From the NCBI GenBank assembly GCA_001784115.1, contig MFPD01000005.1, positions 7,074 to 71,073 on the forward strand: 64,000 bases of DNA, written 5' to 3'. Below are positions 1,469-53,832 of the stretch, one piece after another. Origin of the DNA: Candidatus Levybacteria bacterium RIFCSPLOWO2_02_FULL_37_18 (GTDB lineage: Bacteria; Patescibacteriota; Microgenomatia; Levybacterales; UBA12049). Every line of letters starts with the position of its first letter. Positions within the stretch are counted from its first letter, which is position 1. Both the position numbers and the translations under genes were made by a program. The notes beneath the pieces are model-generated. The model did no database searches. It had not been told where the DNA came from and was given only the letters and a program-made list of their open reading frames with translations.

Positions 1469-1522
1469 GAATTTCGCGGTTGTCATTCTGGTAAGTCTCG
1501 CCGAAGGCGACGCAGAATGACA
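1469..1522. repeat. TGTCAT...ATGACA palindromic element (CATTCTG/CAGAATG variant) with extended gaatttcgcNgttgtcat arm
   Basis: inverted repeat ttgtcattctg...cagaatgacaa with an inner tcgccgaaggcga palindrome. Confidence 0.7.
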
Positions 1523-3387: not shown

Positions 3388-3455
3388 GTCATCCTGAGCG
3401 TAGTAAAGGATCTATTCGGTAAAAGATTCTTCTGCTTTCAGTCTCAGAATGACAG
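3388..3455. repeat. TGTCAT...ATGACA palindromic element (gtcatcctgagcg...ctcagaatgacag) in the rho 3' intergenic region
   Basis: inverted-repeat termini GTCATCCTGAG / CTCAGAATGAC. Confidence 0.6.
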
Positions 3456-8458: not shown

Positions 8459-8797
8459 CTACTTCATTTTTGCCATTGAGGATGGCATGAATTTGTGCAT
8501 CGTTCCTTCCAGAATGACACTATACAAGTCTTTCCAATTCGGATTCATACCTTCAACTAACTGGTTTTTCTTCCTTCTAACAAGGTTTTTAATAGTTTTT
8601 TCTCTTGCAATGGCAATCATGGGATGTTCTGCTACTTCGTAGTAAACAAGCTTGTTAATATTGTATTTGCTGGTGAATCCATTTGCTACTTTATTTTTGT
8701 GTTGCCAAACGCGTTTTATAAGATTATCGGTCATTCCGTTATAAAGTGTGGTGTTTGTTTTGTTAGTCATAATATAAACATAATATTGTTTAGACAT
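8459..8797 (-). CDS. GIY-YIG nuclease superfamily protein (UPF0213-like)
   Basis: YVYIMTNKTNTTLYNGMTDNLIKRVWQHK...KLVYYE GIY-YIG motif. Confidence 0.75.
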   Translation of the reverse strand: MSKQYYVYIMTNKTNTTLYNGMTDNLIKRVWQHKNKVANGFTSKYNINKLVYYEVAEHPMIAIAREKTIKNLVRRKKNQLVEGMNPNWKDLYSVILEGTMHKFMPSSMAKMK

Positions 8798-8958
8798 ATG
8801 TTAGATTCTATCGTGGTCGTTGCCACTCCAGAATGACAAAAATATTAAGGCGCACCAGTAGATGGGCCAAATTCTGACAGCCCCCTCCTATATTAAACTC
8901 TAATCTCTAAACACTAAATTCTAAACAATATCTAAATTACAATTTTTAAAATACCAAA

Positions 8959-14001: not shown

Positions 14002-14124
14002 TCCCGACCTGATCGGGAATCTATATAAATATTTGTATGGATTCCGTGTCAAGCACGGAATGACAAGGAATCTAGATTGCTTCGCTAGCGCTCGGAATGA
14101 CAGAAAGATTACTCGGAATGACAT
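13997..14124. repeat. cluster of 3-4 TGTCAT...ATGACA palindromic elements (CATTCCCG/CGGGAATG, CGGAATGAC variants) between giant genes; supplies the ATGACA start of the LamG gene
   Basis: gtcattcccgacctgatcgggaatc..., cggaatgacaag, gattgcttcgctagcgctcggaatgacag, ctcggaatgacatt. Confidence 0.7.
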
Positions 14125-21675: not shown

Positions 21676-24600
21676 TTAATTTACTATTAACCAATTAAAG
21701 GGAATATCAGTTTTGGGTTGGTTGTTTACTCCCACAGTAAATGATTCATTTGGTACTTGGCGAAGGAGATACAAAACTTCATTATTTGTGTTGCCGTTTG
21801 GCGTGATATAAATAAGTGATTTTTCCGTCACCAAACTATTTCTAATGGTGAGTTCGGATTGGTATGCACTTATGGTAGCAATTCCTGCAGAGCCTGTGGC
21901 AATGATTTCCGAACTTGACAGAGCTAAAGCTTTACTGATCGGGCTTAGATTAAGCTTAGAAAATGTGCCGGAGCCTGAGGCTACTACATTTCCTTGTTCA
22001 CTCACTGCAAAAACAGCAGAGCCGGAAGCATTGGTAACAGTAAGCGTTTTTTCAAATGTAGCATTGCCTTTTACTTGCATATTTCCTTCGATATCAAACG
22101 TAATTAATCCGCCAAGGAAGTTAATACCTCCTTGTCTTAGCGGTTGGATTTCCAGACTGCTATCTAGCACATTAATAGAGTTATCTGTTAAAACAAGGCC
22201 GGTATTTGGGCTGCCGATACTAACAGTTCCTGTAAACGAGGCATCGGTAAAGGTGGAGGGACCGAGAGAAATAAAGCCATAATTAAACTTCGGAAAACTC
22301 AGAATACTCGGAGAATCAGATGAATTCAGATTTTTCAGATAATCAGATACGCTAAGGTTGTCTGCAATAATTGTTCCGGCGCGTAGAACTCCTCCAATGC
22401 TTGCATTACCACTATTGTTAAATTGTTCTATTGTTAAATTGTTAAATTGTCCAGATTGAGCTGTAAGTTGGCCTGAGAACGAGGCGTTGCCTGTACTATC
22501 TATAGTAGCAACAGCGCTGCCGGAGGCGTTTTGGACCTCCACGATAATGTCATTGCGAGGAGACACGTCTGACGTGTTCGACGAAGCAATCCCTTGAGAT
22601 TGCTTCGCTCCGCTCGCAATGACGAGTCTTCCGTTCACCACTACCGAATCAGAAGACAAGGGAGAAATGGTATCGGTATGGATTTGGTCAACGTAAGCAA
22701 TGGGAGAAACAACCTTAGTATCTAGTATTAAGTATTTAGTATTTAGTATATTCGTATTAAGCGTATCAATAGTTCCATTGGCAGCAGTGAGTGTTTGAGT
22801 TGCGAGCTCGGAAGTTTTGATAGAGCCTTCTACTGCGAGTTCTTTGGCATGAATGTAGCCGGCTTCTAGATTTGCAATAACAGCCTTACTAAAAGTTCCA
22901 ATACGATTTATAAGTTGGTCTGTTGCCTTGTTGTTTAAAGAAAATGATATGGTTTGGTCCTGTTGTGTTATAGTTTGGGGAACAGAACCAAATGTCGGAT
23001 CAAGATCAATCGAGAGATTACCGGTGTCAGTAAGATAAACATCGGGGTCGTGAAATGAAGGCTGGAGGATCGTGTTCACGATGCAGATATTATTGTCATT
23101 GTGAGGAGTACCGAGCTTGTCGAAGGATGACGAAGCAATTCCATCTGAAGTAGATTGCTTCACTTCGTTCGCAATGACAGAACAAGAAGGTTCTGAAAGG
23201 GCTCGGCCCACCACTCTTCCTGCCCGGGTTGCTTTCATGGCAACTCCAGGAACAGAACTGTTAGTAAGATAGTCTCCGGGTTTTATGTCTCCGCTCTCGG
23301 TCGAAACTTTTAAAGGCAACTGGCCAAGGAGGCCGACTAAAACATAGTTTGGGTCATTGTCATGGTCGCTTCCGCCGACAAAACCGGCTCTGTCTGAGAC
23401 AATTCCGAGGATATTATTGTTTGTTTGATCACACTTACCAACACCGCCGTCTTCTGCCAGACAGACAAGGTCACCGGGTTCAAAAGATTGCTTCGTCCTC
23501 CACGCTTCGCTCTGAGTCCTCGCAATGACATTACTTTTTCTAAAGTATTCTGCAAAGTCAACGCCGGTTGTGGAGTATTTGACTCCCCCTCCAAAACTTT
23601 GGATTTTTCCCTGAATCTGGCCGTTTCCATCCAGAAACGTAGTAAAATAATTTGTGTTTGATCCTGTTGTAAAACCTAATTTTAAAGCCAAGGCAACAGA
23701 ATTAGCACCTGTATCGGTATTTTCAATCATGGCTACTGCAGTTGCAGATTGACTATCGGAAACATGCAGTTTATAGGCAGGATTTGTGGTACCAATTCCA
23801 ACATTGCCGGTTGTACCCGAGACTAAAAATTTAGCAGCAGCAGTTGAATTTCCGCCAACCAGCAGATCATCAGTTATATTTGTCGGCGCAACTGTTCCAA
23901 GTGATCGTAAAAACGGCGGAGTCTGCCAGGTTGGAACACCGCCTAAGACAGTCAAAACTTGATTTGACGAGCCAATACTTCTTTTTGAAAGCGAAGTGGG
24001 ATTGGAAGATGCGGCATATAAAATATCGCCGGTTGAGTAGGTGGTTAGACCTGTTCCGCCATAATTTGCTTTTATTGATGTTGCCTGCCATGTGCCTGTT
24101 GAAATAGTTCCAACTTGTGTTAGAGAAGAATTTACAACAGCAGTTCCCAAAGTAGTTGCAGAGAGAACATCAGTTGCGTTAATTTGATAGGTTTTGCCGG
24201 AAGACAAGTTCATTGTGCCGGTATTTAGCACAGTGCCCGAACCATTGAGAGGGGAAAGAGTAATATTTCCGGTTGTATTTCCGCCGATAGTTAGGCTATT
24301 ATTCCCTGTTGTTTGAATACTTCCTGCTCCGGTTCTAAAACTTAAAGAACCGGATACAGAGGCACTTCCTGCTATATCAAGAAATGCAGAAGGGGTAGAA
24401 GTGCCAAAACCAATATTTCCTCCTTGAGTAATAACAAGATAGGAATTGGGGTTTGGCGTTGTTCCATTTACGCCAATTTGCAAATTGCCGGAAGTTGTAG
24501 AAATAGAAACAGCATAATCGAGTGTTTGTCCGCAGCCATCAGTAGTTGTGCATTGAACATGCAAAGAAGAAGGACCTACATATAGACTTTTAAATCGGGC

Positions 24601-26985
24601 AGAAGAGGATGCGCCCAAGTCAGTAACATTATCGGTTTGCGGGCCAAAATAGCCTGTGGCTTGAGAGTTTTTGGGATTGACAAGAATATTGCCGGTATTT
24701 GTTCCGCCAAGTGTGAGCGTTTGGTTATTGGTAGTTTGAATAAGGCCAGATACGTTATCAAAGGTAAAGTTGCCTTTGGAAATAATATTGCCGGATAAAC
24801 CTTCGATTCTCAGTTTTGATGAGTCAGACGCGGTTCCTCCAAGTATAAGATCATCGGTTGAATTCAAAGGCGAAATTACCTGGCTGTTTCTTTGCCACCA
24901 GCCCTGGGTTCCGGAAATAAGAGTGGGAAATACATTTTGAGTATAAATATTTTTCCAAGAAGCAAGAGGAGAGCCGATAGTATAAAGTCCGGTGTCAACA
25001 GGCGTAATATTTCCTTTGATATCAAGCGCATTTTGGGGAGCTGCAGTACCAATGCCAACCCAGCCGTCGCTGTCAATAACAAACTTGGTTGCGCCTGAGC
25101 TTGAAGCGGTAATAAGATCACCGGAGCTATTATTATTCACAATAAAAGAGGCAACCGCTGATTCAGTCGCGTTGATAATTACTTTATCGTCTATTTCAAC
25201 TGCTCCAGGGTTAAATTCTCCATTCATGGAGCTATTTATAATTGGTTTTTGAATATCAACAGAGCCAAACCCGTCAGGAGAAAGCTCGATATTGCCATTT
25301 GAACCCGGCACCGTGTTGAGAATTACAGACTTTCCGGAAAGTGTGAAAGTGCCGCCTGTGGCTTGAAATGTGGGAGAAGCATTTTGTCCGATGACTAAAT
25401 TTCCCGATGAGTTAAGAGACAGAACAACATTTTTTGCATCACCTTGGGTAATGGGCGAAAGTCCATCAAGAGTAAGAGCGTTTTGAGAGAATTGGGTGGT
25501 TGGGATTTGCTGACGGGGAGATAATTCTTCATCCGAGCCGACCTGAATGCCTAAAAAAAGCTTTTCGTTTTCAGAAAAAATAGATTCGGAAAGAGGGTTA
25601 TTTATTCCAAGTACAACAGAAAATGTTCCGTCAGAATTGGGACTTATGGTATGAACTTCTTTCCAAATTAAAGAATTTGAGAAATTGGTTGGGTGATTAT
25701 ACAAAGAAAAAGTTACATCTTTTGGGGAATTGATTGGATTATTGAGCCGATCCAGGAGTTTGCCTGTAAAAAAAAGAGTTTTTGGAGAAATATGAGTAGA
25801 AAGAATGGCTTTTGGCGGCGAATGTAAAAAATCAGTCTTATCGAAAAAGAATAATGTGCCACTCGTAACAATAATTATTAAAATGGAAAAATGAATATAG
25901 CTTGAAATTGGTGAAGCATGATATTGTTTGTACCATTTTGGTCTTTTGTGTTTGAGAAAAACAATTAATTTTTTATGGAAAGGAAGATAAGAAGTAGAGA
26001 TGGGCGCGTAAAAACTTTTGGGAATATTAGGAATATATGAAGATGATTGTTTTTGAAACAGTTTTAGAAAAGAGCTTTGTTTTTTTGCTTGATTGGCTTT
26101 TGCGAATTTTATTTTTTTTCTTAAAAAAAGAGATTCTGTCTGATTCACTAAAGCAGCCAGAGGAATGATAAAAAGATATTCCAGTATATAGTTTGATGCT
26201 TTAAGTAGTTTTTGGAATAGGCGGATGGGAGGGAAGCGAGAAAATAAATTGTCATTGCGAGGGTTTGAAAAACCCGAAGCAATCTCGAGATTGCTTCTCT
26301 CACTTTGTTCGCTCGCAATGACAGTGGGTTTATATTTTACATTCGATTCTAGGTCATCTACAGGTTTGATTATGCCTTCTTTTTCTATCCAGGCAAGATA
26401 TTTTCTTAGTGATGAGAGTTTTCTGTTGATAGATTTTGGAGCAAGCTTGGCTTCGTGAAGCAGTCTGTATTTGTATTCGTTAAAAAGAGAAGAGTCAATT
26501 TTTCTTAAGACATCTTGTTCTTTTAGGTTCCATGCATGGATTGCGCCGGTTACACGCTCTGCCCATTTTAAAAACTGGAGCACATCGTTAGTATAGTTTT
26601 TTATAGTAAGATTTGATGCGTTATAGACATACAAGTAGTTTTTAAATTCTTTTATGTGCCATATGTCTTCCTTTTTTGGAGAGGCGGGTAGAGATTTGTT
26701 AAAAGGATCTTTTAGAACAAGTCCTTCTAGTTTTAAGAAGCGAAAAAAGCTTCTCAAGGAAGACATATGTCTTTTAACTGTTTTAGGCGAAAGAGAAGTT
26801 TTTTCTTTTTTATAGATTTCGATAATGTGAGGAGTTATTTCCGGGGGGTTGAAGGTTTTATGAAAGGACTCTTGAAACCAACGGATAAACTGTCCTACAT
26901 CTGCCTTATAGTTTTTGACAGTTATTTTTGAAGGCTGTTTTTTCTGAGACTTCAAGAAAAGAATAAACGGTTGTAATAGATTCAT
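21676..26985 (-). CDS. giant surface protein (1769 aa): two tandem phage-integrase N-terminal SAM-like (core-binding) domains, in-frame palindromic element, TM helix (YIHFSILIIIVTSGTLFFF), giant ectodomain, conserved DFAEYFRK domain, C-terminal domain ending NWLIVN
   Basis: SAM-like pattern ITVKNYKADVGQFIRWF...LSPKTVKRHMSSLRSFFRFLKLEGLV and LTIKNYTNDVLQFLKW...APKSINRKLSSLRKYLAWIEKEGII; no stop between these and the TM/ectodomain. Confidence 0.75.
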   Translation of the reverse strand: MNLLQPFILFLKSQKKQPSKITVKNYKADVGQFIRWFQESFHKTFNPPEITPHIIEIYKKEKTSLSPKTVKRHMSSLRSFFRFLKLEGLVLKDPFNKSLPASPKKEDIWHIKEFKNYLYVYNASNLTIKNYTNDVLQFLKWAERVTGAIHAWNLKEQDVLRKIDSSLFNEYKYRLLHEAKLAPKSINRKLSSLRKYLAWIEKEGIIKPVDDLESNVKYKPTVIASEQSERSNLEIASGFSNPRNDNLFSRFPPIRLFQKLLKASNYILEYLFIIPLAALVNQTESLFLRKKIKFAKANQAKKQSSFLKLFQKQSSSYIPNIPKSFYAPISTSYLPFHKKLIVFLKHKRPKWYKQYHASPISSYIHFSILIIIVTSGTLFFFDKTDFLHSPPKAILSTHISPKTLFFTGKLLDRLNNPINSPKDVTFSLYNHPTNFSNSLIWKEVHTISPNSDGTFSVVLGINNPLSESIFSENEKLFLGIQVGSDEELSPRQQIPTTQFSQNALTLDGLSPITQGDAKNVVLSLNSSGNLVIGQNASPTFQATGGTFTLSGKSVILNTVPGSNGNIELSPDGFGSVDIQKPIINSSMNGEFNPGAVEIDDKVIINATESAVASFIVNNNSSGDLITASSSGATKFVIDSDGWVGIGTAAPQNALDIKGNITPVDTGLYTIGSPLASWKNIYTQNVFPTLISGTQGWWQRNSQVISPLNSTDDLILGGTASDSSKLRIEGLSGNIISKGNFTFDNVSGLIQTTNNQTLTLGGTNTGNILVNPKNSQATGYFGPQTDNVTDLGASSSARFKSLYVGPSSLHVQCTTTDGCGQTLDYAVSISTTSGNLQIGVNGTTPNPNSYLVITQGGNIGFGTSTPSAFLDIAGSASVSGSLSFRTGAGSIQTTGNNSLTIGGNTTGNITLSPLNGSGTVLNTGTMNLSSGKTYQINATDVLSATTLGTAVVNSSLTQVGTISTGTWQATSIKANYGGTGLTTYSTGDILYAASSNPTSLSKRSIGSSNQVLTVLGGVPTWQTPPFLRSLGTVAPTNITDDLLVGGNSTAAAKFLVSGTTGNVGIGTTNPAYKLHVSDSQSATAVAMIENTDTGANSVALALKLGFTTGSNTNYFTTFLDGNGQIQGKIQSFGGGVKYSTTGVDFAEYFRKSNVIARTQSEAWRTKQSFEPGDLVCLAEDGGVGKCDQTNNNILGIVSDRAGFVGGSDHDNDPNYVLVGLLGQLPLKVSTESGDIKPGDYLTNSSVPGVAMKATRAGRVVGRALSEPSCSVIANEVKQSTSDGIASSSFDKLGTPHNDNNICIVNTILQPSFHDPDVYLTDTGNLSIDLDPTFGSVPQTITQQDQTISFSLNNKATDQLINRIGTFSKAVIANLEAGYIHAKELAVEGSIKTSELATQTLTAANGTIDTLNTNILNTKYLILDTKVVSPIAYVDQIHTDTISPLSSDSVVVNGRLVIASGAKQSQGIASSNTSDVSPRNDIIVEVQNASGSAVATIDSTGNASFSGQLTAQSGQFNNLTIEQFNNSGNASIGGVLRAGTIIADNLSVSDYLKNLNSSDSPSILSFPKFNYGFISLGPSTFTDASFTGTVSIGSPNTGLVLTDNSINVLDSSLEIQPLRQGGINFLGGLITFDIEGNMQVKGNATFEKTLTVTNASGSAVFAVSEQGNVVASGSGTFSKLNLSPISKALALSSSEIIATGSAGIATISAYQSELTIRNSLVTEKSLIYITPNGNTNNEVLYLLRQVPNESFTVGVNNQPKTDIPFNWLIVN
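22549..22623. repeat. palindromic element (gtcattgcgag...ctcgcaatgac) in frame in giant gene 3 (VIASGAKQSQGIASSNTSDVSPRND)
   Basis: both termini present, inner gaagcaatc / gattgcttc arms. Confidence 0.8.
23096..23179. repeat. palindromic element (gtcattgtgag...cgcaatgac) in frame in giant gene 3
   Basis: termini plus inner gaagcaatt / agattgcttc arms. Confidence 0.75.
23487..23529. repeat. half palindromic element (gattgcttcgtcctccacgcttcgctctgagtcctcgcaatgac), identical to the right half of the intergenic copy at 27646-27692
   Basis: exact 43-nt identity with 27646..27692. Confidence 0.8.
26252..26323. repeat. palindromic element in frame between the SAM-like domains and the TM of giant gene 3 (VIASEQSERSNLEIASGFSNPRND)
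   Basis: gtcattgcgag...gaagcaatctcgagattgcttc...ctcgcaatgac. Confidence 0.8.
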
Positions 26986-27580
26986 GTTTGTATAATCAAT
27001 GTCTTTTACTTTTGTCTCGGTAGAAGAGTTGTTTTTGTTGGGCCTCGAGATTATACGAATTATACGGGTGTTTAATGATAGAAATTAATAAACTGTCATT
27101 ATTAAGAGTAGACTTTATATATCAAATTGTCAATAACCTAGAGTAAGCTAAAATTGATATAATTTTATATCTTAATATATGGTAAAAATTTTCATATTTT
27201 TATATTCCGGAGTTTTTAGCTTTGTTACGTCTTTAATTATCTTCACAAATTTCAAGTTCGGTTTTTATTCCGAATATTTTCTTATTTTTTAACTATATAC
27301 AAATATAGCATAAGAATGAATGTGGAGAAGAGTTCTAATTTTATTTTTTGATGACTATGTCCTATAGCTAGTATTACGCATAATAAAATTATATGCTATT
27401 TTAGCAATCGAAGATAAAAAGTGCCACACTATTTTTATGAGGAGATTTGGTTATAGATGTAATAAAAATGCAGGAAAATGCTTCATATTATTTTTCATAA
27501 GACACGCTCAAATTGCTTAGAATCTAAGGCTGTTTAGGATAAAAAACAAAACTAATTATACGGCTAAATAGTACATCACA

Positions 27581-27706
27581 CGAATTTCGCAGTTGTCATT
27601 GCGAGCGACCAAGTCAGACTTGGGAAGCGTGGCAATCTCATTGATGGGAGATTGCTTCGTCCTCCACGCTTCGCTCTGAGTCCTCGCAATGACAACTGCG
27701 AAATTC
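27581..27706. repeat. full-length (about 126 bp) two-tier palindromic element with extended arms cgaatttcgcagttgtcattgcgag / ctcgcaatgacaactgcgaaattcg; likely the intact form of the family
   Basis: perfect 25-nt terminal inverted repeats plus inner gcaatctc / gattgc arms; intergenic, upstream of the giant-gene block. Confidence 0.85.
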
Positions 27707-27754
27707 GTAATTAGGTTGAGAAGTGGGATGGAGGATGGGGGAATGAGGGCAGTT

Positions 27755-28705
27755 TTATTGATGTTTTTTGATCCTTTTTATAACAAAAAGAATCAGAATA
27801 AAAATACCAACAATTTCTCCGGTTTCTTTTAAAGGCAAGACAACGAATTGGACGCTTCGGGTAAATGTAGGGCCATGTTTGGACAAGGCAAGGGTAAGAC
27901 GCGCCGTATACGGTCCCAGGAGAAAGCCGTTTTGCCAAGACAATTTTGTCAGGTCACCCTCTGTGACTAAAAGTTTTTCCGAGTCTATGAGAATAGGTGA
28001 TTGTTTGATTCCTATTGCTCCAACTGTTTGAGAAAACATATTTTTGATCGTGATTATACCTTGAGGAAGTATCGCGTGACTGCCCGTGTTTCTAACTCTG
28101 AGCGTAAACGGAATCGGGCCTTTCTGAGAGAAGAAAGGACCGGAAAACTCTTCTATGGTGCCTTTCGGAGAAGAAGAAATGTTTTGAATTGAAAGTAGTA
28201 TATGGCTTGCAATTATTACTTGTGCTTTTGTAATAGTTTCTTTTTTCTCAAAAGTACTCGGTTCTGGATTAGATATAAAAAGAATAGAAAAATAATAGTC
28301 TGATTCTGTTTGTTCGGTAGGAATGTGGAGGGAAAAGGTAAGCGTTTTCTTTTGAAACGGTCCGAGTAATATCTTGTTGGTTGGCTCGTCGTCTTCTAAA
28401 ATGGTAACTTTTTTTAGAATATCCGGGTCTGGCTTTTTGTCAAAGTTCTCAAGATAGGATACATTTCCTTGACTGTCTTTGGCCCGAAATGGTTTGAGAA
28501 GAATTTCAAATTCCATTGGCTGCTCGGTACGGTTTTCTATACTAAGAGGCGTTTTGATAGTGTTGGGTGCTTTGGTTTGAATGGTAATAGAAGGCGGAGA
28601 AACTCTGAGCGATACCGAAGTTGCATATGCCTTGTTTAAAGGCAAAAGTGACATCCATGTCATTCCGAGCAAAGCGAAGAATCTTTTTAAATTTAAATTT
28701 TTCAT
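27755..28705 (-). CDS. secreted protein with N-terminal signal peptide and C-terminal TM anchor (IVGIFILILFVIKRIKKHQ); possible surface-assembly accessory protein
   Basis: signal MKNLNLKRFFALLGMTWMSLLPLNKAYA; part of the signal (RFFALLGMT) is encoded by a TGTCAT half-element at 28659-28683. Confidence 0.6.
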   Translation of the reverse strand: MKNLNLKRFFALLGMTWMSLLPLNKAYATSVSLRVSPPSITIQTKAPNTIKTPLSIENRTEQPMEFEILLKPFRAKDSQGNVSYLENFDKKPDPDILKKVTILEDDEPTNKILLGPFQKKTLTFSLHIPTEQTESDYYFSILFISNPEPSTFEKKETITKAQVIIASHILLSIQNISSSPKGTIEEFSGPFFSQKGPIPFTLRVRNTGSHAILPQGIITIKNMFSQTVGAIGIKQSPILIDSEKLLVTEGDLTKLSWQNGFLLGPYTARLTLALSKHGPTFTRSVQFVVLPLKETGEIVGIFILILFVIKRIKKHQ

Positions 28706-30185: not shown

Positions 30186-33002
30186 ATGAAAGACTACAAG
30201 CCTTTGGAAATTGAGGTTAAGTGGAAAAAAATGTGGGACGAGAAAAAAATATACAGCCCTGATTTGGACAGCGTAAAAAGGCCATTTTATAACCTGATGA
30301 TGTTTCCCTATCCGTCTGCGGAAGGACTTCACGTAGGCTCGGTCTTTACATTCACCGGCGTTGATACATACGGAAGATTTAAACGCATGCAGGGATTTGA
30401 TGTCTTCGAACCCATGGGACTTGACGGGTTTGGAATTCACAGTGAAAACTATGCCTTAAAAGTGGGCCGCCATCCAAAAGAACAGGCAAAACGATCAGAA
30501 GAGAACTTTTATCGACAGCTTTCTTCTATTGGAAATGGGTTTGACTGGAGCAGAAAACTAGAAACATATGATCCAAACTATTACAAATGGACTCAATGGA
30601 TCTTTATACAGCTCTTTAAAAGAGGACTTGCATACAGAAAAAAAGCTCCGGTAAACTTCTGTCCTTCATGTAAAACAGTTCTTTCGGATGAGCAGGTCAT
30701 TGATGGGAAATGCGAGAGGTGTGGTTCGGTTGTCGAAAAAAGAGAGCTTGAACAATGGTTCTTTAAAATCACTGACTATGCAGAGCGACTTTTGAATAAT
30801 ATCCCAAAGTTGAACTGGACAGAAAAAGTTAAGATTGCCCAAAGGGATTGGATCGGAAAGCGGGAAGGAACCACAATCCGCTTTGTCATTGCGAGGACCC
30901 AGAACGAAGTGAAGGGGACGAAGAAATCTCAAAAAGATCAGATTATCATGGGTTCTGCGAACCCTCGCAATGACAGTCAATATATTGAGGTTTTTACCAC
31001 ACGGGGCGATACGCTGTATGGGGCGACGTTTATTGTTTTGGCACCCGAGCACCCGGTCGTCGCTTCGCTCCTCCGGAATTCAGAATTAGAAAAGATACGA
31101 AAGTACGTTGAGGAGGTCAAAAAGAAAACGGAGATTGAAAGGGGAGCACAAGGGAAAGAGAAGACAGGGGTATTTACCGGTTTATACGCGATCAATCCGA
31201 TTAATAATGAATCAATTCCTGTATGGATTGCAGATTACGCGTTGATGGGTTATGGCACAGGAGCATTATTTGGAGATGCGCATGACGAGCGGGACGTAGC
31301 GTTTGCTAAAAAATATGGAATTCCTCTAAAAGCAACTCTTATTACAGGAGACAAAGAAAGAGACGAGCGTATTCTAAAGCTTGAAGAATGTTTTACCGGA
31401 GACGGGACATTGGTTGATTCGGGGGAATTTTCAAGGTTGTCTTCACAGCAAGCACGGGAAAGAGTAGCAGAATGGCTCGAAAAGAATAAAAAAGGAGGCA
31501 GAAAAGTAACGTATCATCTTCGCGACTGGCTTATTAGCAGGCAGAGATACTGGGGGCCGCCGATACCGATGATCTACTGTCAAAGTTGTGCAGGTAAAGG
31601 CAGATCTTGGTTTAATTCCATTGACAGTAAAGAAGAGAATGTATCAAGTATTAAGTATAAGGTATCAAGCAAGGACGGGAAATTTCTTAATACTAAATAC
31701 GTAATACATACTACTGATGACATGGTAGGATGGTATCCAATTCCCGAGGAAGACCTGCCTGTCATCCTGCCCGATGTCCAAGATTGGAGGCCTGAAGGAA
31801 CCGGAGTCTCGCCCTTGGCAAATCATCCGGAATTTTATAAAACAACGTGTCCTAGTTGCGGTGGAAAAGCAAGGCGGGAAACAGACGTCTCGGATACATT
31901 TTTAGATTCTGCTTGGTACTTTTTTAGGTATTTAGCAACGGAGATACATGATGTGCCGTTTCCTTCGGAAGGGTTCATAAATTCCAAATCAACAAATCAA
32001 CAAATCAACAAATCAACAAATTTGATGATTGGAAATTGGAAATTGGAAATTGGAAATTTCGCGAAGCGAGTAAAGTGGCTTCCCGTAACTATGTACATTG
32101 GCGGAGCAGAACATTCGGTTCTCCACCTATTATACTCCAGGTTTATTACTATGGCGTTTAAGGATTTGGGTTTGATTGATTTTGAAGAGCCGTTTGCTCG
32201 GTTTTACGCACATGGACTTATTATTAAAGATAGAGCGAAAATGAGCAAAAGCAAAGGCAATGTCATAAATCCGGACGAGTATTTGGCAAAATACGGCGCA
32301 GATGTTTTACGGGCGTATTTAAGGTTTGTAGGGCCATTTGATATGGGAGGCGATTTTAGGGACAGCGGAATTGAGGGAATGCAGAGATTTTTGAAACGAG
32401 TTTGGAGATTGGTTAATGATGTCATCGCGAGCGAAGCGAAGCAATCTTCTGACCCGAAAGAGATTGCTTCGCCCTCCTTTGGCGAGGCTCGCAATGACAA
32501 TGAGGGAAAACGAGTAATGAATAGGATAATCAAGGGAGTAACAGATGATCTGGAGGCTCTGCGATTTAATACTGCCATGGCAAAGCTGATGACGTGGTAT
32601 AACTATCTTTCTCAGCAAAAAAATGTAAGTAAAAAAGAGCTTGAGACATTTTTAAAGCTTCTGGCGCCTATTGCGCCTTTTATAACCGAGGAATTATATC
32701 AAAATGTCATTGCGAGTCCGGAGGGCGCTGCAATCTCAGATGACGGAAGTTTTCGATCTGTTCATCTTCAACCGTGGCCGTCATACGAGCCTAAGATGCT
32801 GGAAGAAGGAGAAGTAACAATTGTGGTTCAGGTGAATGGGAAAGTTCGTGATTCGTTCACAGTTCATAGTTTACAGTTCACAGAACAAAGCAAAGTTGAA
32901 AAGAAAGCAAAAGAGAGTTCAAAGATAAAAAAGTATATAGAGGGGAAAAAGATTAAGAAAGTCATTTATGTTGAGGGGAAAATTATCAATTTTGTCGTCT
33001 AA
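30186..33002 (+). CDS. leuS: leucyl-tRNA synthetase, carrying three in-frame palindromic-element insertions and one heptamer-repeat insertion
   Basis: LeuS N-terminus MKDYKPLEIEVKWKKMW...FPYPSAEGLHVGSVFTF; KMSKSKGN motif; VKWLPVTMYIGGAEHSVLHLLYSRF. Confidence 0.9.
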   Translation: MKDYKPLEIEVKWKKMWDEKKIYSPDLDSVKRPFYNLMMFPYPSAEGLHVGSVFTFTGVDTYGRFKRMQGFDVFEPMGLDGFGIHSENYALKVGRHPKEQAKRSEENFYRQLSSIGNGFDWSRKLETYDPNYYKWTQWIFIQLFKRGLAYRKKAPVNFCPSCKTVLSDEQVIDGKCERCGSVVEKRELEQWFFKITDYAERLLNNIPKLNWTEKVKIAQRDWIGKREGTTIRFVIARTQNEVKGTKKSQKDQIIMGSANPRNDSQYIEVFTTRGDTLYGATFIVLAPEHPVVASLLRNSELEKIRKYVEEVKKKTEIERGAQGKEKTGVFTGLYAINPINNESIPVWIADYALMGYGTGALFGDAHDERDVAFAKKYGIPLKATLITGDKERDERILKLEECFTGDGTLVDSGEFSRLSSQQARERVAEWLEKNKKGGRKVTYHLRDWLISRQRYWGPPIPMIYCQSCAGKGRSWFNSIDSKEENVSSIKYKVSSKDGKFLNTKYVIHTTDDMVGWYPIPEEDLPVILPDVQDWRPEGTGVSPLANHPEFYKTTCPSCGGKARRETDVSDTFLDSAWYFFRYLATEIHDVPFPSEGFINSKSTNQQINKSTNLMIGNWKLEIGNFAKRVKWLPVTMYIGGAEHSVLHLLYSRFITMAFKDLGLIDFEEPFARFYAHGLIIKDRAKMSKSKGNVINPDEYLAKYGADVLRAYLRFVGPFDMGGDFRDSGIEGMQRFLKRVWRLVNDVIASEAKQSSDPKEIASPSFGEARNDNEGKRVMNRIIKGVTDDLEALRFNTAMAKLMTWYNYLSQQKNVSKKELETFLKLLAPIAPFITEELYQNVIASPEGAAISDDGSFRSVHLQPWPSYEPKMLEEGEVTIVVQVNGKVRDSFTVHSLQFTEQSKVEKKAKESSKIKKYIEGKKIKKVIYVEGKIINFVV
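30885..30974. repeat. palindromic element (90 bp, 30 aa, in frame) inside leuS: VIARTQNEVKGTKKSQKDQIIMGSANPRNDSQ
   Basis: gtcattgcgag...ctcgcaatgac termini. Confidence 0.8.
31985..32060. repeat. heptamer tandem repeats (caaatca x4 then ggaaatt x4) in frame inside leuS (KSTNQQINKSTNLMIGNWKLEIGNF)
   Basis: direct 7-bp repeats visible in sequence. Confidence 0.85.
32422..32499. repeat. palindromic element (78 bp, 26 aa, in frame) inside leuS: VIASEAKQSSDPKEIASPSFGEARND
   Basis: gtcatcgcgagcgaagcgaagcaatc...gattgcttcgcc...ctcgcaatgac. Confidence 0.85.
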
Positions 33003-33734: not shown

Positions 33735-33747
33735 TGTACTAAATATG

Positions 33748-33894: not shown

Positions 33895-33897
33895 AAT

Positions 33898-36927: not shown

Positions 36928-38151
36928 CTAAATCGGGATGGAGAAGGTGATGGTGGTGCCCTTGCCAGGCTCGGAATCTAATGTAATAATTCCGCCGTGG
37001 GCATCTATAATTTGTTTGGAAATAAACAACCCAAGTCCGGTGCCTGCAACGTGATTTTTTATTTCGCCTGCGTTTTTGCCGCTATCAATTTGATAAAACT
37101 TGGAAAACAATTCTCCTTGTTGTTCTTTAGGAATGCCAATTCCCGTGTCAGCCACAGAAACAGTAAGCTTTTTTGTTCCGCTTTGTATTAGCTGCGCGCT
37201 AACAGTTATCTTGCCTTTTTCTTGAGTAAATTTAACGCTGTTTGAAATTAAGTTGTTTAACACTTGTCCAATGCGGATTGGGTCAAGCATGACTTCTTTT
37301 GGCACGCTTTTGTCAATTTTAGCCAAAAGTTCAATCTTTTTATTCTTAGCTTGCACAGAAAATACCTCAACAACTTGCTCGATTAATTTTTTTATATCAC
37401 TAGGAGTTTTTTGGATGGTAAACTTGGAAGCTTGGATTTTTGCCAGGTCTAAAAGCGATGATATTTGATCCAAGATTCGTTTGGATTGATCATGTATTAA
37501 CGTAAGCATTTTTTCTCGTTCTTCTCTGCTCAATTTTTTGTTGGTAACCAGTATTTTGGACGCGCCTTTGACAGCGGTAATGGGAGCTCTGAGTTCGTGA
37601 ATCATCATGTTGACAAAATCATCTTTGACAATTGACAAAGAATTGTCAAATGTAACGTCTTTGATGACAAGACAGACAAGGGAGATTCTGGACTCCTCAC
37701 TTCGTTCGTCTCCAGAATGACGAAGAATGATCGGAGCAAGGTTCACTTTGAGAGTTTTTTCTTCTAATTTAATTTCCTGTTCTTCCAGAGCTTTGTTTTC
37801 CGTCAAAGTTTGTTCAACCATTTTCTTTAAATCAAATGTAGGAGGCAGGCTATTGACAATATCAGCCAGTTTTGGCTTGTTTGCCTTTATGCGTAGAATC
37901 TTTTTCGCGGAGGCATTGACAAACGGCAGTTCGTTAACACCGTCAATCATAATGATGCCGTCGGCTAAGTTTTCTAATACATTTTGAGCTATTTGTTCAT
38001 GTATTGATATGGTTTCGAAATCTTTTTTTGACACTCTTTCTTTTTTTAGTTTTTGTTCTTCAATAAATAATCCTAAGGCAGCAACTCCAAGGCAAATGGC
38101 GGCAAGACTCGGAAGAATAACAGGTAAATTAAGCAGGATTTGTAGATTCAC
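36928..38151 (-). CDS. sensor histidine kinase (N-terminal TM, HisKA plus HATPase_c), carrying an in-frame palindromic element (37683-37730)
   Basis: H-box MIHELRAPITAV; G-boxes GTGLGLFISKQIIDAHGG. Confidence 0.85.
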   Translation of the reverse strand: MNLQILLNLPVILPSLAAICLGVAALGLFIEEQKLKKERVSKKDFETISIHEQIAQNVLENLADGIIMIDGVNELPFVNASAKKILRIKANKPKLADIVNSLPPTFDLKKMVEQTLTENKALEEQEIKLEEKTLKVNLAPIILRHSGDERSEESRISLVCLVIKDVTFDNSLSIVKDDFVNMMIHELRAPITAVKGASKILVTNKKLSREEREKMLTLIHDQSKRILDQISSLLDLAKIQASKFTIQKTPSDIKKLIEQVVEVFSVQAKNKKIELLAKIDKSVPKEVMLDPIRIGQVLNNLISNSVKFTQEKGKITVSAQLIQSGTKKLTVSVADTGIGIPKEQQGELFSKFYQIDSGKNAGEIKNHVAGTGLGLFISKQIIDAHGGIITLDSEPGKGTTITFSIPI

Positions 38152-39450: not shown

Positions 39451-39483
39451 CCAATTTACAATTTACAATTTACAATTTACAAT
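39451..39483. repeat. heptamer tandem repeat (caattta x4.5) immediately upstream of the argS start
   Basis: ccaatttacaatttacaatttacaatttacaatg. Confidence 0.85.
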
Positions 39484-41444: not shown

Positions 41445-41490
41445 GTCATGCCGAACTTGTTTCGGGATCCTGAAATAAATTCAGGATGAC
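41445..41490. repeat. palindromic element (gtcatgccgaacttgtttcgggatcctgaaataaattcaggatgac), intergenic
   Basis: inverted termini GTCATGCCGAAC / TTCAGGATGAC. Confidence 0.7.
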
Positions 41491-42856: not shown

Positions 42857-42902
42857 GTCATCCTGAATTTATTTCTGGATGCCGAAACAAGTTCGGCATG
42901 AC
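42857..42902. repeat. palindromic element (gtcatcctgaatttatttctggatgccgaaacaagttcggcatgac), intergenic before ndk
   Basis: same family as 41445..41490 (shared arms in a different order). Confidence 0.7.
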
Positions 42903-53764: not shown

Positions 53765-53832
53765 GTCATCCTGAATTTATTTCAGGATATCGTTCTTCAA
53801 GGATTAAGATTCCGAAACAAGTTCGGAATGAC
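53765..53832. repeat. palindromic element (gtcatcctgaatttatttcaggat...ccgaaacaagttcggaatgac) between rplT and pheS
   Basis: TGTCAT / ATGACA termini with two internal hairpins. Confidence 0.75.

What the first reader, a model, noticed from the sequence alone, without database searches (positions are those of the whole stretch)
30885..32760. RPE-like palindromic elements inserted in frame into essential genes (leuS x3, argS, the histidine kinase, the giant adhesins)
The TGTCATTGCGAG...GAAGCAATC..GATTGCTTC...CTCGCAATGACA element occurs intact in intergenic DNA (27581-27706). It also occurs as in-frame inserts whose length is a multiple of 3, read as V-I-A...K-Q-S...P-R-N-D. Examples are leuS 30885-30974 (30 aa), 32422-32499 (26 aa) and 32706-32760. 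Further in-frame copies are at 12757, 14800, 22549, 23096, 23487, 26252 and 37683, and a GTCATCC variant sits in argS at 41206-41274. This mirrors Rickettsia palindromic elements, which insert in frame into protein-coding genes. The terminal ATGACA also supplies the start codon of the LamG giant gene (14001) and part of a signal peptide (28659-28683). The family has many subvariants (CATTCTG, CATTCCCG, CATCCTGAA, CATGCCGAAC) that all keep TGTCAT ends.
Basis: seen in the sequence. Interest (0 to 1): 0.8.

Follow-up and report, generated by a model that had tools for sequence, protein, structure and literature searches.

The report
Hairpin repeats inserted in-frame into genes
A Levybacteria (candidate-phyla-radiation) genome is peppered with short GTC-tagged hairpin repeats, many sitting in frame inside essential genes such as leuS and argS, and these repeats belong to the same superfamily as some Rickettsia palindromic elements and are the gene-less form of a small GIY-YIG nuclease cassette.

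Summary
GTCATTGCGAG (≤1 mismatch) occurs 22 times against 0.67 expected. About 43 GTC-tagged hairpin units lie in the 64 kb.

In-gene inverted pairs are multiples of 3 nt (75, 72, 84, 84, 90, 78, 39, 69). They are always read GTC = Val … AAT GAC = Asn-Asp. The one exception is purH, at 98 nt tag to tag.

The LeuS, ArgS and PurH inserts are missing from the closest orthologues and from solved structures. In an AlphaFold model of LeuS, the only segments with pLDDT < 50 are the lineage-specific inserts.

The "RPE-like" interpretation holds at superfamily level. The units fit the CGTC/TGTC-tagged REP superfamily (Di Nocera 2013), which includes R. conorii RPE-4 and RPE-6. They keep the GTC and the post-palindrome C that matter for the Neisseria SsnA nuclease (Chenal 2025).

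The likely partner is a GIY-YIG gene, not a RAYT:
- The window encodes a 112-aa GIY-YIG gene (8459-8797) preceded by a unit.
- In 36 of 68 metagenome loci, homologous about 95-aa ORFs sit inside such a palindrome, 24 of them with GTCATTGCGAG ends.

So the short palindromes look like ORF-less derivatives of an Ssn-type cassette. This is a new member of a known kind. The new points are the CPR host, the density in essential genes and the explicit link to the GIY-YIG cassette.

The parts
30885..30974 (.). Inverted pair of ATTGCGAG-type units in leuS (90 nt). It encodes LeuS aa 234-263, VIARTQNEVKGTKKSQKDQIIMGSANPRND.
   Evidence: Absent from P0002/P0003 and most orthologues. Absent from T. thermophilus LeuRS, where query 237-266 is unaligned. 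pLDDT < 50 for aa 247-263, between strands E225-236 and E266-271.
32421..32498 (.). Inverted pair in leuS (78 nt). It encodes aa 746-771, VIASEAKQSSDPKEIASPSFGEARND.
   Evidence: DNA fold has a terminal stem plus an inner GAAGCAATC/GATTGCTTC stem, z = -3.4. pLDDT < 50 at aa 761-769, between helices H726-754 and H771-790.
32706..32744 (.). Truncated element in leuS (39 nt). It encodes aa 841-853, VIASPEGAAISDD.
   Evidence: Other orthologues carry full elements of several variants at the same site (P0020, P0021, P0026, P0027).
41206..41274 (.). Pair of 8-9-bp-stem units (ATCCCGAA + ATGCTGAA) in argS (69 nt). It encodes aa 615-637, VIPNLFRDPQHSDNEMLNRVQHD.
   Evidence: Folds as two side-by-side hairpins. 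Absent from yeast ArgRS 1BS2. Occupancy 0.09 in 51 orthologues, and P0259 carries a different variant at the same site.
61591..61688 (.). Pair of ATTCTGG/ATCCTGG units in purH (98 nt tag to tag, 33 codons). It encodes aa 166-198, in the linker between the MGS-like and AICARFT domains.
   Evidence: Absent from PurH 4EHI, where query 162-194 is unaligned.
37684..37721 (-). Single ATTCTGGA unit (9-bp stem) inside the histidine kinase gene, aa 144-164, between the PAS and HisKA domains.
   Evidence: Not checked against orthologues.
22549..22623 (.). Inverted pair (75 nt) in giant ORF 21676-26985. It encodes VIASGAKQSQGIASSNTSDVSPRND.
   Evidence: DNA fold z = -8.0.
23095..23178 (.). Inverted pair (84 nt) in the same giant ORF. 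It encodes VIANEVKQSTSDGIASSSFDKLGTPHND.
23486..23529 (-). Single unit in the giant ORF, 44/44 identical to the unit at 27650-27693.
   Evidence: The identity of two dispersed copies argues for recent copying.
26251..26322 (.). Inverted pair (72 nt) in the giant ORF. It encodes VIASEQSERSNLEIASGFSNPRND.
   Evidence: z = -5.95.
14800..14883 (.). Inverted pair (84 nt) in giant ORF 14191-21558. It encodes VTASNSAHLRGEVPAEAHLGGVSAPRND.
12758..12783 (-). Single ATTGCGAG unit in the LamG giant gene (VIASGAKQS…).
13997..14122 (-). Cluster of four units at the 5' end of the LamG gene. The last one (…CGGGAATGACA) contains the candidate start codon at 14001.
   Evidence: Use as a start codon is inferred, not shown.
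27580..27708 (.). Intergenic full element. The core pair is 27595-27693 (99 nt), and 15 further nt on each side are complementary (GAATTTCGCAGTT flank).
   Evidence: 26-nt arms, 100% complementary. (-52.4 kcal/mol, z = -12.8). The flank motif recurs at 1469.
28659..28683 (+). Unit-like sequence (GTCATTCCGAGCAAAGCGAAGAATC) read on the minus strand as KRFFALLGMT, in the signal-peptide-like N-terminus of ORF 27755-28705.
41445..41490 (.). Intergenic 46-nt pair (ATGCCGAA + ATCCTGAA) between argS and the M16 peptidase gene.
   Evidence: 44/46 identical, in inverted orientation, to 42857-42902 on the other side of the M16 gene.
42857..42902 (.). Intergenic 46-nt pair between the M16 peptidase gene and ndk.
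53765..53832 (.). Intergenic 68-nt pair, 15 nt upstream of pheS.
3388..3453 (.). Intergenic 66-nt pair downstream of rho.
1482..1521 (.). Single hairpin tagged GTC…GAC on both sides, preceded by GAATTTCGCGGTT. A similar 26-nt hairpin lies at 1689-1714 (GTCATTCCCGCCTTCGCGGGGATGAC, NTS-like stem).
8459..8797 (-). Single-domain GIY-YIG nuclease gene (112 aa; homologues are about 95 aa). It is the candidate Ssn-type partner of the repeats.
   Evidence: PF01541, E = 6e-12. 1220 homologues at 60-84% identity across phyla. The Tyr8/Tyr19/Glu66 spacing equals the Y6/Y17/E64 of N. meningitidis SsnA.
8804..8837 (-). Unit GTCATTCTGGAGTGGCAACGACCACGATAGAATC, ending a few nt before the GIY-YIG start codon. 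A second unit in the same orientation starts at 8518 and supplies the extended C-terminus.
   Evidence: The same arrangement occurs in L202 (84% identical protein). The inverted arrangement occurs in L201 and L121.

Best explanation
What the repeats are. The basic unit is a short DNA hairpin: an unpaired tag (T/C)GTC, a stem that begins with AT, a loop, the complementary stem, and then a C. Two units in inverted orientation, tags outward, make the 46-99-nt 'palindromes'. They belong to the CGTC/TGTC-tagged REP superfamily. That superfamily also contains Neisseria dRS3/NTS and Rickettsia RPE-4 and RPE-6.

How they relate to a gene. The short pairs are ORF-less relatives of a selfish cassette. 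In that cassette the same two units bracket an about 95-aa single-domain GIY-YIG nuclease gene of the Ssn type.

Inferred mechanism. The nuclease recognises the hairpin in single-stranded DNA through the stem sequence and the C after it. It nicks a few nucleotides 5' of the GTC tag. Repair or copying of such intermediates spreads the units.

Why so many sit in genes. This compact genome has little intergenic space, so many copies landed in genes. Only copies meeting three conditions survived: a length that is a multiple of three, a position in the one frame that is always open and hydrophilic (GTC ATT GCG … AAT GAC = VIA…ND), and a location in a tolerant surface loop. Those copies are translated as 13-33-aa loop insertions in LeuRS (three), ArgRS, PurH, a histidine kinase and giant surface proteins.

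Shown: the anatomy, the over-representation, the in-frame and 3n property, absence from orthologues, loop location, and the GIY-YIG-inside-palindrome architecture. Inferred: mobilisation by the GIY-YIG enzyme, translation of the inserts, and the direction of derivation (ORF loss).
For: - Over-representation: 22 hits against 0.67 expected.
- Modular units: at least 10 different stem sequences all keep complementarity, for example ATTGC/GCAAT, ATCCTGAA/TTCAGGAT, ATGCCGAA/TTCGGCAT, ATTCCGTG/CACGGAAT and ATTCTGGA/TCCAGAAT. The predicted folds agree.
- Length: 12 of 13 in-gene pairs in the window, L203 and L204 are 3n. Cross-phylum pairs of the same family split 44/44/37 by length mod 3.
- Frame: the CHCE frame is always closed by the TGA in ATGAC. 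The SLR…LAMT frame is open in only about half and is more hydrophobic. The VIA/VIL frame is always open.
- Inserts are absent from close orthologues and from solved structures.
- Different variants occupy the same sites in other lineages. A related Levybacteria leuS (L203) carries three other in-frame pairs, and P0003's gene carries none.
- In the AlphaFold model, the only segments with pLDDT < 50 are the inserts.
- Recent copying: two dispersed units are 44/44 identical.
- GIY-YIG link, window: gene at 8459-8797 with a unit abutting its start.
- GIY-YIG link, metagenomes: 36 of 68 loci have ≥10/12 identical inverted terminal 12-mers bracketing the ORF, 24 of them GTCATTGCGAG.
- The protein's nearest neighbour shares its flank type in 55 of 64 cases, against 33.5 expected.
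- L159's homologue is flanked by a 27/28 match to the NTS consensus.
- The conserved GTC and post-palindrome C are the positions found critical for SsnA cleavage and binding.
- The literature places RPE-4/6 and dRS3 in this superfamily and reports intragenic copies encoding 20-30 aa.
Against: - The published SRM search motif finds nothing in the window.
- Homology of the window's GIY-YIG protein to N. meningitidis SsnA / cd10448 could not be tested directly.
- The dominant coding variant (ATTGCGAG) is not the variant flanking the window's own GIY-YIG gene (ATTCTGG). No ATTGCGAG-flanked nuclease gene is visible in these 64 kb.
- None of 120 loci chosen by the ATTGCGAG pair alone contains a GIY-YIG ORF.
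- SsnA has been shown to be a nuclease that modulates transformation, not a transposase. One cut per strand does not by itself explain excision or insertion.
- No target-site duplication was found.
- No presence/absence polymorphism among close strains was found, so no insertion event is directly observed.
- Translation of the inserts is inferred only from the 3n and open-frame constraint.
Confidence: 0.7

Rival explanations
1. The units are REP/REPIN-type elements mobilised by a RAYT (IS200-like Y1 tyrosine transposase).
For: A Y1_Tnp-like gene is present at 36061-36765 (PF01797, E = 2.4e-12; NCBIfam REP_Tyr_transpos, 35 bits) with HUH-like (HFHFF) and RYIHK motifs. REPs in other bacteria are mobilised this way.
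Against: - The units carry a GTC tag, not the GTAG tag that goes with RAYTs.
- The Y1 gene is not flanked by GTC units. Its own repeat (AGCTTCGCAAG…) is confined to that gene.
- The NCBIfam score is far below the cut-off of 80.
- No Y1 homologue occurs in 1.16 Mb of loci collected around the pairs and the GIY-YIG genes.
Confidence: 0.06
2. The units are host-maintained structural or regulatory REPs (terminators, mRNA stabilisers, recombination or transformation signals). On this view they spread by recombination or replication slippage without a dedicated enzyme. The GIY-YIG gene only uses them as recognition sites, for example to restrict incoming ssDNA, and the coding copies are accidental.
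For: - Intergenic copies sit in short spacers just after or before genes: 41445, 42857, 53765, 3388 and 62790.
- In Neisseria, SsnA/NTS modulates natural transformation rather than transposition.
- comEA and comEC lie next to leuS in this window.
- No target-site duplication was found.
Against: - This view does not explain why near-identical 11-nt termini occur in Proteobacteria, Bacteroidota, Chloroflexi, Planctomycetota, Cyanobacteria and Patescibacteria.
- It does not explain why the nuclease ORF sits exactly inside the pair in about half the loci.
- It does not explain why different variants occupy the same protein loops in different lineages.
Confidence: 0.17
3. The segments are native, conserved parts of the proteins (or ordinary low-complexity drift) that merely resemble a repeat.
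For: None beyond their being in frame.
Against: - They are absent from the closest orthologues and from solved structures.
- The same DNA occurs intergenically and in unrelated genes on both strands.
- The DNA shows palindromic symmetry.
Confidence: 0.02
4. The in-gene elements are removed before translation (intron-like RNA excision, or protein splicing), so the mature enzymes lack them.
For: CPR bacteria are known for insertions in rRNA genes that are removed (my own knowledge). The elements fold into strong hairpins.
Against: If they were excised, nothing would select for 3n length, for the absence of stop codons, or for the hydrophilic frame. Yet 12 of 13 in-gene pairs are 3n and all are open in one frame, while intergenic and cross-phylum copies are not. 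There is no Rfam intron match.
Confidence: 0.03

Closest known systems
CGTC-tagged REPs (families CGTC-1 to -4; Di Nocera, De Gregorio & Rocco 2013, PMC3733652)
   Same: - Unpaired CGTC or TGTC tag.
- Stem starting with AT.
- For the ATCCTGAA, ATGCCGAA, ATTCCGTG and ATTCCCGA units: 8-9-bp stems and 4-5-nt loops.
- A short C-rich tail.
- Organisation as inverted dimers that can fold separately or as one hairpin.
- Heterodimers are common.
- Intragenic copies encode 20-30 aa, including in tRNA synthetase genes.
   Different: - The host phylum (Patescibacteria/Levybacteria) is not among the five phyla reported.
- The dominant ATTGCGAG unit has only a 5-bp outer stem, around a variable 12-30-nt insert that often forms its own hairpin.
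- The proportion of copies inside genes is far higher here.
- That paper found no dedicated enzyme.
Rickettsia palindromic elements (RPE; Ogata et al. 2000, 2002), especially RPE-4 and RPE-6
   Same: - Palindromic repeats inserted in frame into unrelated housekeeping genes, and tolerated as extra peptide segments.
- RPE-6 and RPE-4 are CGTC-1 and CGTC-4 REPs.
- Their peptides (VIPAKAGI, SFPRKRES…DSRFRGND, VIPWLDHGIQ…GMT) are the counterparts of VIA…PRND and VIP…VQHD here.
   Different: - There is no sequence match of the inserted peptides to any Pfam or NCBIfam model.
- The stems differ.
- The host is a free-living or episymbiotic CPR bacterium, not Rickettsia.
- RPE-1 (about 150 bp) is a longer, different element.
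- Only one reading frame is used here, whereas all three are seen in R. conorii.
NTS/dRS3 and Ssn-related motifs (SRM) with the SsnA GIY-YIG ssDNA nuclease (Chenal et al. 2025, PMC11893778)
   Same: - The anatomy (C)GTC + AT-stem hairpin + C.
- Repeats flank an about 94-aa single-domain GIY-YIG gene in an IS-like arrangement.
- There are many co-varying repeat/protein pairs.
- Enrichment in symbionts.
- The window's protein has the same Tyr-11-Tyr-47-Glu spacing as SsnA Y6/Y17/E64.
   Different: - The published SRM motif does not match these units.
- That work does not describe coding, in-frame copies or CPR hosts.
- The function shown there is restriction of transforming ssDNA, not mobility.
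REPINs / REP-RAYT systems and classical MITEs
   Same: - Short inverted-repeat doublets present in many copies.
- They are related to a single-gene 'autonomous' unit bracketed by the same repeats.
- They have terminal inverted repeats of 11-12 nt.
   Different: - The tag is GTC, not GTAG.
- The associated gene is a GIY-YIG nuclease, not a Y1 or DDE transposase.
- There is no target-site duplication.

Membership tests
CGTC-tagged REP superfamily | Unpaired terminal tag CGTC (TGTC or CCTC allowed) | tested here: met
   Window units are preceded by T (TGTCAT). The same ATTGCGAG pairs in other phyla are preceded by C in 71 of 125 cases, and mostly by T otherwise.
CGTC-tagged REP superfamily | Stem of 8-9 bp starting with AT, and a loop of 4-5 nt | tested here: inconclusive
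   Met by the ATCCTGAA, ATGCCGAA, ATCCCGAA, ATGCTGAA, ATTCCGAA, ATTCCGTG and ATTCCCGA units. The ATTGCGAG units start with AT but have a 5-bp outer stem and a 12-30-nt interior.
CGTC-tagged REP superfamily | Units commonly paired in opposite orientation; intragenic copies encode about 20-30 aa | tested here: met
Rickettsia palindromic elements (RPE) | Palindromic repeat inserted in frame in protein-coding genes, at positions compatible with the fold | tested here: met
   Orthologue and PDB alignments. The AlphaFold low-confidence loops coincide with the inserts.
Rickettsia palindromic elements (RPE) | Sequence membership in a named RPE family (peptide or domain models) | tested here: not met
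   Nine inserted peptides gave no hit in NCBIfam or Pfam at E ≤ 10. I did not verify which RPE models the library holds.
Ssn-related motifs (SRM/NTS) with Ssn GIY-YIG nuclease | Match to the published degenerate SRM motif HGTCWYN(0-2)YYVSBRHN(0-5)WNVSBRGN(0-2)RNCYNB | tested here: not met
   0 matches in the window, against 0.11 in random sequence. The motif is tuned to CCCGCG-type stems.
Ssn-related motifs (SRM/NTS) with Ssn GIY-YIG nuclease | Hairpin repeats flank a small single-domain GIY-YIG gene | tested here: met
   Window gene 8459-8797 with units at 8837 and 8518. 36 of 68 metagenome loci have matched inverted termini around the ORF. L201 and L202 show the same.
Ssn-related motifs (SRM/NTS) with Ssn GIY-YIG nuclease | GTC immediately 5' of the palindrome and C immediately 3' of it (cleavage and binding determinants) | tested here: met
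   Nearly all bona fide units read GTC-AT…AT-C.
Ssn-related motifs (SRM/NTS) with Ssn GIY-YIG nuclease | The protein is a homologue of N. meningitidis SsnA / CDD cd10448 | not testable with these tools
   Neither the SsnA sequence nor CDD was available. Indirect support: the homologues' length (about 95 aa) is like SsnA's 94 aa, the catalytic spacing is identical, and a 57%-identical homologue (L159) is flanked by a 27/28 match to NTS.
Ssn-related motifs (SRM/NTS) with Ssn GIY-YIG nuclease | Site-specific cleavage of ssDNA only | not testable with these tools
   Needs biochemistry.
REP/REPIN-RAYT | GTAG tag and flanking of a Y1 (RAYT) gene by the repeats | tested here: not met
   The tag is GTC. 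The Y1-like gene at 36061-36765 is not flanked by units. There is no Y1 homologue in 1.16 Mb of related loci.
Classical MITE | Terminal inverted repeats plus a target-site duplication; derived from an IS with a transposase | tested here: not met
   TIR-like ends are present, but 116 of 125 pairs have no flanking direct repeat. The related ORF-bearing element encodes a nuclease, not a transposase.

The most novel reading that the evidence does not exclude
The GIY-YIG (Ssn-type) gene bracketed by two GTC-tagged hairpins is a genuine, phylum-crossing class of mobile element, and RPE-like 'coding palindromes' are its gene-less offspring. In CPR bacteria, which have almost no intergenic space, these offspring would be a main source of the lineage-specific peptide insertions that decorate housekeeping enzymes. 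One LeuRS here carries three such inserts, plus two more from other repeat families. They are occasionally co-opted as start codons or signal-peptide segments. This would generalise the Rickettsia phenomenon and give it an enzyme.
Probability: 0.4. Interest if true: 0.65.

Novelty: new member of a known kind. Interest (0 to 1): 0.5.

Why it matters
In-frame 'selfish' palindromes in proteins were long treated as a Rickettsia curiosity, and CGTC-tagged REPs as repeats without an enzyme. This window does three things:

- It shows the same superfamily at very high density inside essential genes of a candidate-phyla-radiation bacterium.
- It shows that lengths and frame are filtered by translation.
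- Together with the metagenome loci, it ties the coding palindromes directly to the Ssn-type GIY-YIG cassette that was characterised biochemically in 2025.

This has practical consequences too. The inserts make orthologue lengths vary by more than 200 aa. They may also confuse annotation: this LeuRS is deposited as 'hypothetical protein'.

It also gives a testable route to ask whether Ssn nucleases mobilise their repeats.

Tried and rejected
- **Published SRM regex:** 0 hits in the window. I took this as a limitation of the motif, not as evidence against relatedness.
- **Pfam and NCBIfam scans of nine inserted peptides:** nothing.
- **Rfam at gathering thresholds:** only four tRNAs.
- **phmmer for GIY-YIG ORFs in 120 loci picked by the ATTGCGAG pair:** none. 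Dispersed copies are therefore not usually next to the gene.
- **RAYT hypothesis:** a Y1-like gene was found, but it is not associated with the units.
- **Search for strain-level indel polymorphism in LeuS:** all five cluster members are 938 aa.
- **Target-site duplication and palindromic-target analysis of 125 pairs:** no TSD, and only 1-2 nt of extra complementarity as a rule.
- **Test whether the family is intrinsically 'coding-ready':** frame 0 is no more often open than the other frames across phyla. The frame bias in this genome is therefore post-insertion selection.
- **Papers:** Ogata 2002 (PMC186582) is not held. The Ssn paper's supplements are not held.
- **** (GTAG counted in all loci) was a mis-specified, uninformative search.
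- **Exact insertion junction:** the closest empty-site orthologues are only 61-67% identical, too diverged to define it.

Full report
**1. Source and observation**

The window has 39.5% G+C. Its LeuS is identical to a protein of Candidatus Levybacteria bacterium RIFCSPHIGHO2_01_FULL (Microgenomates, candidate phyla radiation).

GTCATTGCGAG with up to one mismatch occurs 22 times, against 0.67 expected. No shuffle reaches that count.

Pairs with complementary 14-nt ends, measured from GTCAT to ATGAC:

| Coordinates | Length (nt) |
|---|---|
| 3388-3453 | 66 |
| 22549-22623 | 75 |
| 26251-26322 | 72 |
| 27595-27693 | 99 |
| 30885-30974 | 90 |
| 32421-32498 | 78 |
| 41206-41274 | 69 |
| 41445-41490 | 46 |
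| 42857-42902 | 46 |
| 53765-53832 | 68 |
| 61591-61688 | 98 |

Pairs at 14800-14883 and 23095-23178 (84 nt each) have one diverged end.

All coordinates in the finding are right within a base, with one exception. The third leuS copy is a truncated 39-nt element, 32706-32744.

By eye, from the full list of GTCAT sites, there are about 43 units in 64 kb.

**2. Anatomy**

The repeat is modular. Each unit reads (T)GTC, then a stem that begins with AT, a loop, the complementary stem ending in AT, and then C.

At least ten stem sequences occur, and each keeps its own complement:
- ATTGC/GCAAT
- ATCCTGAA/TTCAGGAT
- ATGCCGAA/TTCGGCAT
- ATCCCGAA/TTCGGGAT
- ATGCTGAA/TTCAGCAT
- ATTCCGAA/TTCGGAAT
- ATTCCCGA/TCGGGAAT
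- ATTCCGTG/CACGGAAT
- ATTCTGGA/TCCAGAAT
- ATTCCCGC/GCGGGGAT

The 'palindromes' are two units in inverted orientation with the tags outward, often with different interiors. Folded as single-stranded DNA, two patterns appear:
- The ATTGCGAG type gives one long hairpin, with a terminal 11-12-bp stem and an inner GAAGCAATC/GATTGCTTC stem (z from -3.4 to -12.8).
- The 8-bp-stem types give two hairpins side by side.

Rfam has no family for them.

**3. In-frame insertion**

Every ATTGCGAG-type copy inside an ORF is read GTC ATT GCG … CGC AAT GAC = V-I-A … R-N-D, whichever strand carries the gene. This holds for LeuS ×3, the 1769-aa ORF ×4, the 2455-aa ORF ×2 and the LamG protein ×1.

*Lengths.* In-gene pairs measure 75, 84, 72, 84, 90, 78, 39 and 69 nt in the window. 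In related leuS genes they measure 87, 69, 69 (L203) and 60 (L204). Twelve of thirteen are multiples of three. The purH pair is 98 nt tag to tag but spans exactly 33 codons. Intergenic pairs include lengths of 46, 46, 68 and 80 nt. The same family in other phyla splits 44/44/37 by length mod 3.

*Frames*:
- The C-H-C-E frame is always closed by the TGA inside ATGAC.
- The S-L-R…L-A-M-T frame is closed in all ATCCTGAA-type pairs, open in only about half of the ATTGCGAG pairs, and more hydrophobic.
- The V-I-A frame is always open and hydrophilic (GRAVY -0.4 to -1.1).

Across phyla, frame 0 is not preferentially open (52/125, against 64 and 57 for the other two). The bias is therefore a filter after insertion, not a built-in property. 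The same filter argues that the inserts are translated rather than removed.

**4. The inserts are lineage-specific and lie in loops**

*LeuS* (47 orthologues):
- At aa 234-263, P0003 (63% identity) has ...IKFQISNNKSQYIDVF where the window has ...IRF[30 aa]SQYIEVF.
- Other orthologues carry other variants at the same three sites. Examples: VILNSFQDP…IRHD; VIAKSED…IASGTRND; CHPEF…LNQVQHD; VTASEAKQSQEIASSQAPRND; VILRAKSEGPKEILRYAQND.

*DNA of three orthologous genes*:
- L203 has three in-frame ATCCTGAA/ATGCCGAA pairs in leuS, plus one just after the stop codon.
- L204 has one pair.
- L205 (P0003, 810 aa) has none.

*Solved structures.* T. thermophilus LeuRS (1H3N), yeast ArgRS (1BS2) and PurH (4EHI) lack the segments.

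*ArgS.* Among 51 ArgS orthologues the 21 central residues have occupancy 0.09. P0249 (61% identity) goes straight from …KHKIIES to ETKEFR….

*AlphaFold2.* The LeuS model (72-sequence alignment) has mean pLDDT 82.5 and pTM 0.80. Its only segments below pLDDT 50 are 247-263, 486-508, 597-622 and 761-769. Two of these are GTC-element inserts and two are inserts from other repeat families. Each lies between confidently predicted strands or helices.

*Not an artefact.* The 938-aa protein recurs unchanged in five cluster members on 17 contigs.

**5. What the repeats are related to**

A full-text search for the sequence found Chenal et al. 2025 (PMC11893778). That paper defines:
- the Neisseria NTS, CGTCATTCCCGCGMAVGCGGGAATCYRG, which contains dRS3;
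- the broader 'Ssn-related motifs';
- SsnA, a 94-aa single-domain GIY-YIG nuclease that binds the hairpin only as ssDNA and cuts a few nucleotides upstream.

The three bases before the palindrome (GTC) are critical for cleavage. The C just after the palindrome is critical for binding. These are exactly the positions conserved across all variants here.

Di Nocera et al. 2013 (PMC3733652) had earlier defined CGTC-tagged REPs. Their features are a CGTC or TGTC tag, 8-9-bp stems starting with AT, 4-5-nt loops, inverted dimers, and intragenic copies encoding 20-30 aa, including in tRNA synthetase genes. They equated Neisseria dRS3 and R. conorii RPE-6 with family CGTC-1, and RPE-4 with CGTC-4. [quoted passage not shown] Their supplement lists the Rickettsia peptides VIPAKAGI, SFPRKRES…DSRFRGND and VIPWLDHGIQ…GMT, which are the counterparts of the peptides here.

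The inserted peptides themselves hit no Pfam or NCBIfam model. The published SRM regular expression finds nothing in the window.

**6. The GIY-YIG link**

*In the window.* The window encodes a GIY-YIG protein at 8797→8459 (112 aa; PF01541, E = 6e-12). A unit, GTCATTCTGGAGTGGCAACGACCACGATAGAATC, ends just before its ATG. A second unit supplies its extended C-terminus.

*The protein family.* It has 1220 homologues of about 95 aa at 60-84% identity in many phyla. Its Tyr8, Tyr19 and Glu66 have the same spacing as the SsnA residues Y6, Y17 and E64.

*In metagenome loci* (80 loci). The ORF typically sits inside a palindrome: TGTCATTGCGAG…GAAGCAATC, 5-30 nt, ATG…ORF…TGA, GATTGC…CTCGCAATGACA.
- Of 68 loci with both flanks available, 36 have ≥10/12 identical terminal 12-mers in inverted orientation.
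- 24 of those are GTCATTGCGAG. The rest are ATTCTGG, ATTCTGA, ATTCCGAG, ATTCTCCG and one NTS-like ATTCCCGCG, which matches the NTS consensus at 27 of 28 positions.

*Co-variation.* Proteins group by flank type: the nearest neighbour shares the type in 55 of 64 cases, against 33.5 expected.

*Related Levybacteria.* L201 and L202 show the same cassette.

The hosts include Bradyrhizobium, sphingomonads, Mucilaginibacter/Pedobacter, Chloroflexi, Planctomycetota, Microcoleus, Rickettsiales, Patescibacteria and Berkelbacteria.

I read the short pairs as ORF-less relatives of this cassette. The direction of derivation, and mobilisation by the nuclease, are inferences.

**7. Evidence bearing on mobility**

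For mobility:
- The unit at 23486-23529 is 44/44 identical to the unit at 27650-27693.
- The same protein loops hold different variants in different lineages.
- The termini are near-identical across phyla.

Against, or missing:
- No target-site duplication.
- No strain-level presence/absence polymorphism.
- No GIY-YIG gene in the 8-kb neighbourhoods of 120 dispersed pairs.
- The window's own nuclease gene is flanked by the ATTCTGG variant, not by the ATTGCGAG variant that dominates the coding inserts.
- SsnA is so far known only as a nuclease that limits transformation.

**8. Rivals**

- *RAYT.* A RAYT-like Y1 gene does exist at 36061-36765. Its flanks carry a different, private repeat. No Y1 homologue occurs in 1.16 Mb of related loci.
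- *Native conserved sequence.* Refuted by the alignments.
- *Excision before translation.* Hard to reconcile with the 3n and open-frame filter.
- *Host-function REP without a dedicated mobilising enzyme.* This remains the main alternative for how the units spread.

**9. Verdict**

The elements are best filed as new members of the CGTC/TGTC-tagged REP (SRM) superfamily, which already includes RPE-4/6 and dRS3/NTS.

Three things appear to be undescribed. Searches of the held library for CPR/Patescibacteria with MITE, palindromic or in-frame terms found nothing relevant.
- The CPR host.
- The density in essential genes: eight or more proteins in 64 kb, with three copies in one LeuRS.
- The explicit demonstration that RPE-like coding palindromes share their ends with an Ssn-type GIY-YIG cassette.

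Noticed in passing
window 31985-32058 (leuS); 39452-39483, 40092-40125, 41017-41050 (argS); 42518-42554 (M16 peptidase); 22414-22450, 22715-22758 (giant ORF): A second kind of coding insert. These are perfect tandem arrays of 7- or 8-nt units (CAAATCAA, ATTGGAA, CAATTTA, ACAATTC, TTAGTAT), 4.4-6 copies each, inside essential genes. They give peptides such as STNQQINKSTN…IGNWKLEIGN. The same peptide motif recurs at the homologous LeuS site in P0008, P0011 and P0018, and also in ArgS. In LeuS the segment (aa 597-622) has pLDDT < 50 and is absent from most orthologues.
   Followed up: partly
window about 31593-31727 (LeuS aa 470-514): A further lineage-variable insert (…VSSIKYKVSSKDGKF…NTKYVIHTTD) lies inside the CxxC…WxPVP zinc module of LeuRS. 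It is shared in diverged form with P0007, P0020 and P0035, and is absent from P0003 and T. thermophilus LeuRS. pLDDT is < 50 for aa 486-508.
   Followed up: partly
window 36061-36918 (-): An IS200/RAYT-like Y1 transposase gene (PF01797, E = 2.4e-12) lies next to the histidine kinase gene. It carries its own in-frame palindrome, AGCTTCGCAAGGCCACGCCTTGCGAAGCT (36255-36283, read as LASQGHALRSW). It is preceded by three perfect 15-nt tandem copies of a related sequence (36827-36871). This repeat is confined to that locus.
   Followed up: partly
window 41445-41490 and 42857-42902: The M16 peptidase gene (41524-42834) is bracketed by two 46-nt unit pairs that are 44/46 identical in inverted orientation. 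This repeat-gene-repeat layout resembles the 'NTS-gene-NTS' arrangement described for Neisseria.
   Followed up: no
window 1469-1486, 27582-27599, 27689-27706: A conserved 13-nt flank, GAATTTCGC(A/G)GTT, precedes the GTCAT tag at three intergenic ends belonging to two different stem variants. It lies where SsnA-type cleavage would be expected, just 5' of the tag.
   Followed up: no
window 33075-36071: Competence genes lie directly downstream of leuS: comEA-like (SLBB + HHH) and comEC-like (Competence + metallo-beta-lactamase). This is of interest because SsnA/NTS acts on incoming single-stranded transforming DNA in Neisseria.
   Followed up: no
window 21676-26985 (-) and 14191-21558 (-): The giant ORFs, as delimited by stop codons, begin with fragments of unrelated domains. 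These are the Phage_int_SAM N-terminal domain (aa 7-88) and a MerR HTH (aa 5-55). They may be read-through fusions with upstream gene remnants, or mis-placed starts.
   Followed up: no
window 30186-33002: This LeuRS is deposited in NCBI as 'hypothetical protein' (OGH18920.1 and relatives), although the Pfam domains are clear. Compared with T. thermophilus LeuRS it also lacks the leucine-specific domain (Tth residues about 578-634).
   Followed up: no
window 44896-46262 and 8959-9318: A Tn5-like DDE transposase is split into two ORFs (Tnp_DNA_bind, then DDE/Dimer_Tnp_Tn5). A 23S rRNA intervening-sequence protein gene lies immediately upstream of the GIY-YIG cassette.
   Followed up: no
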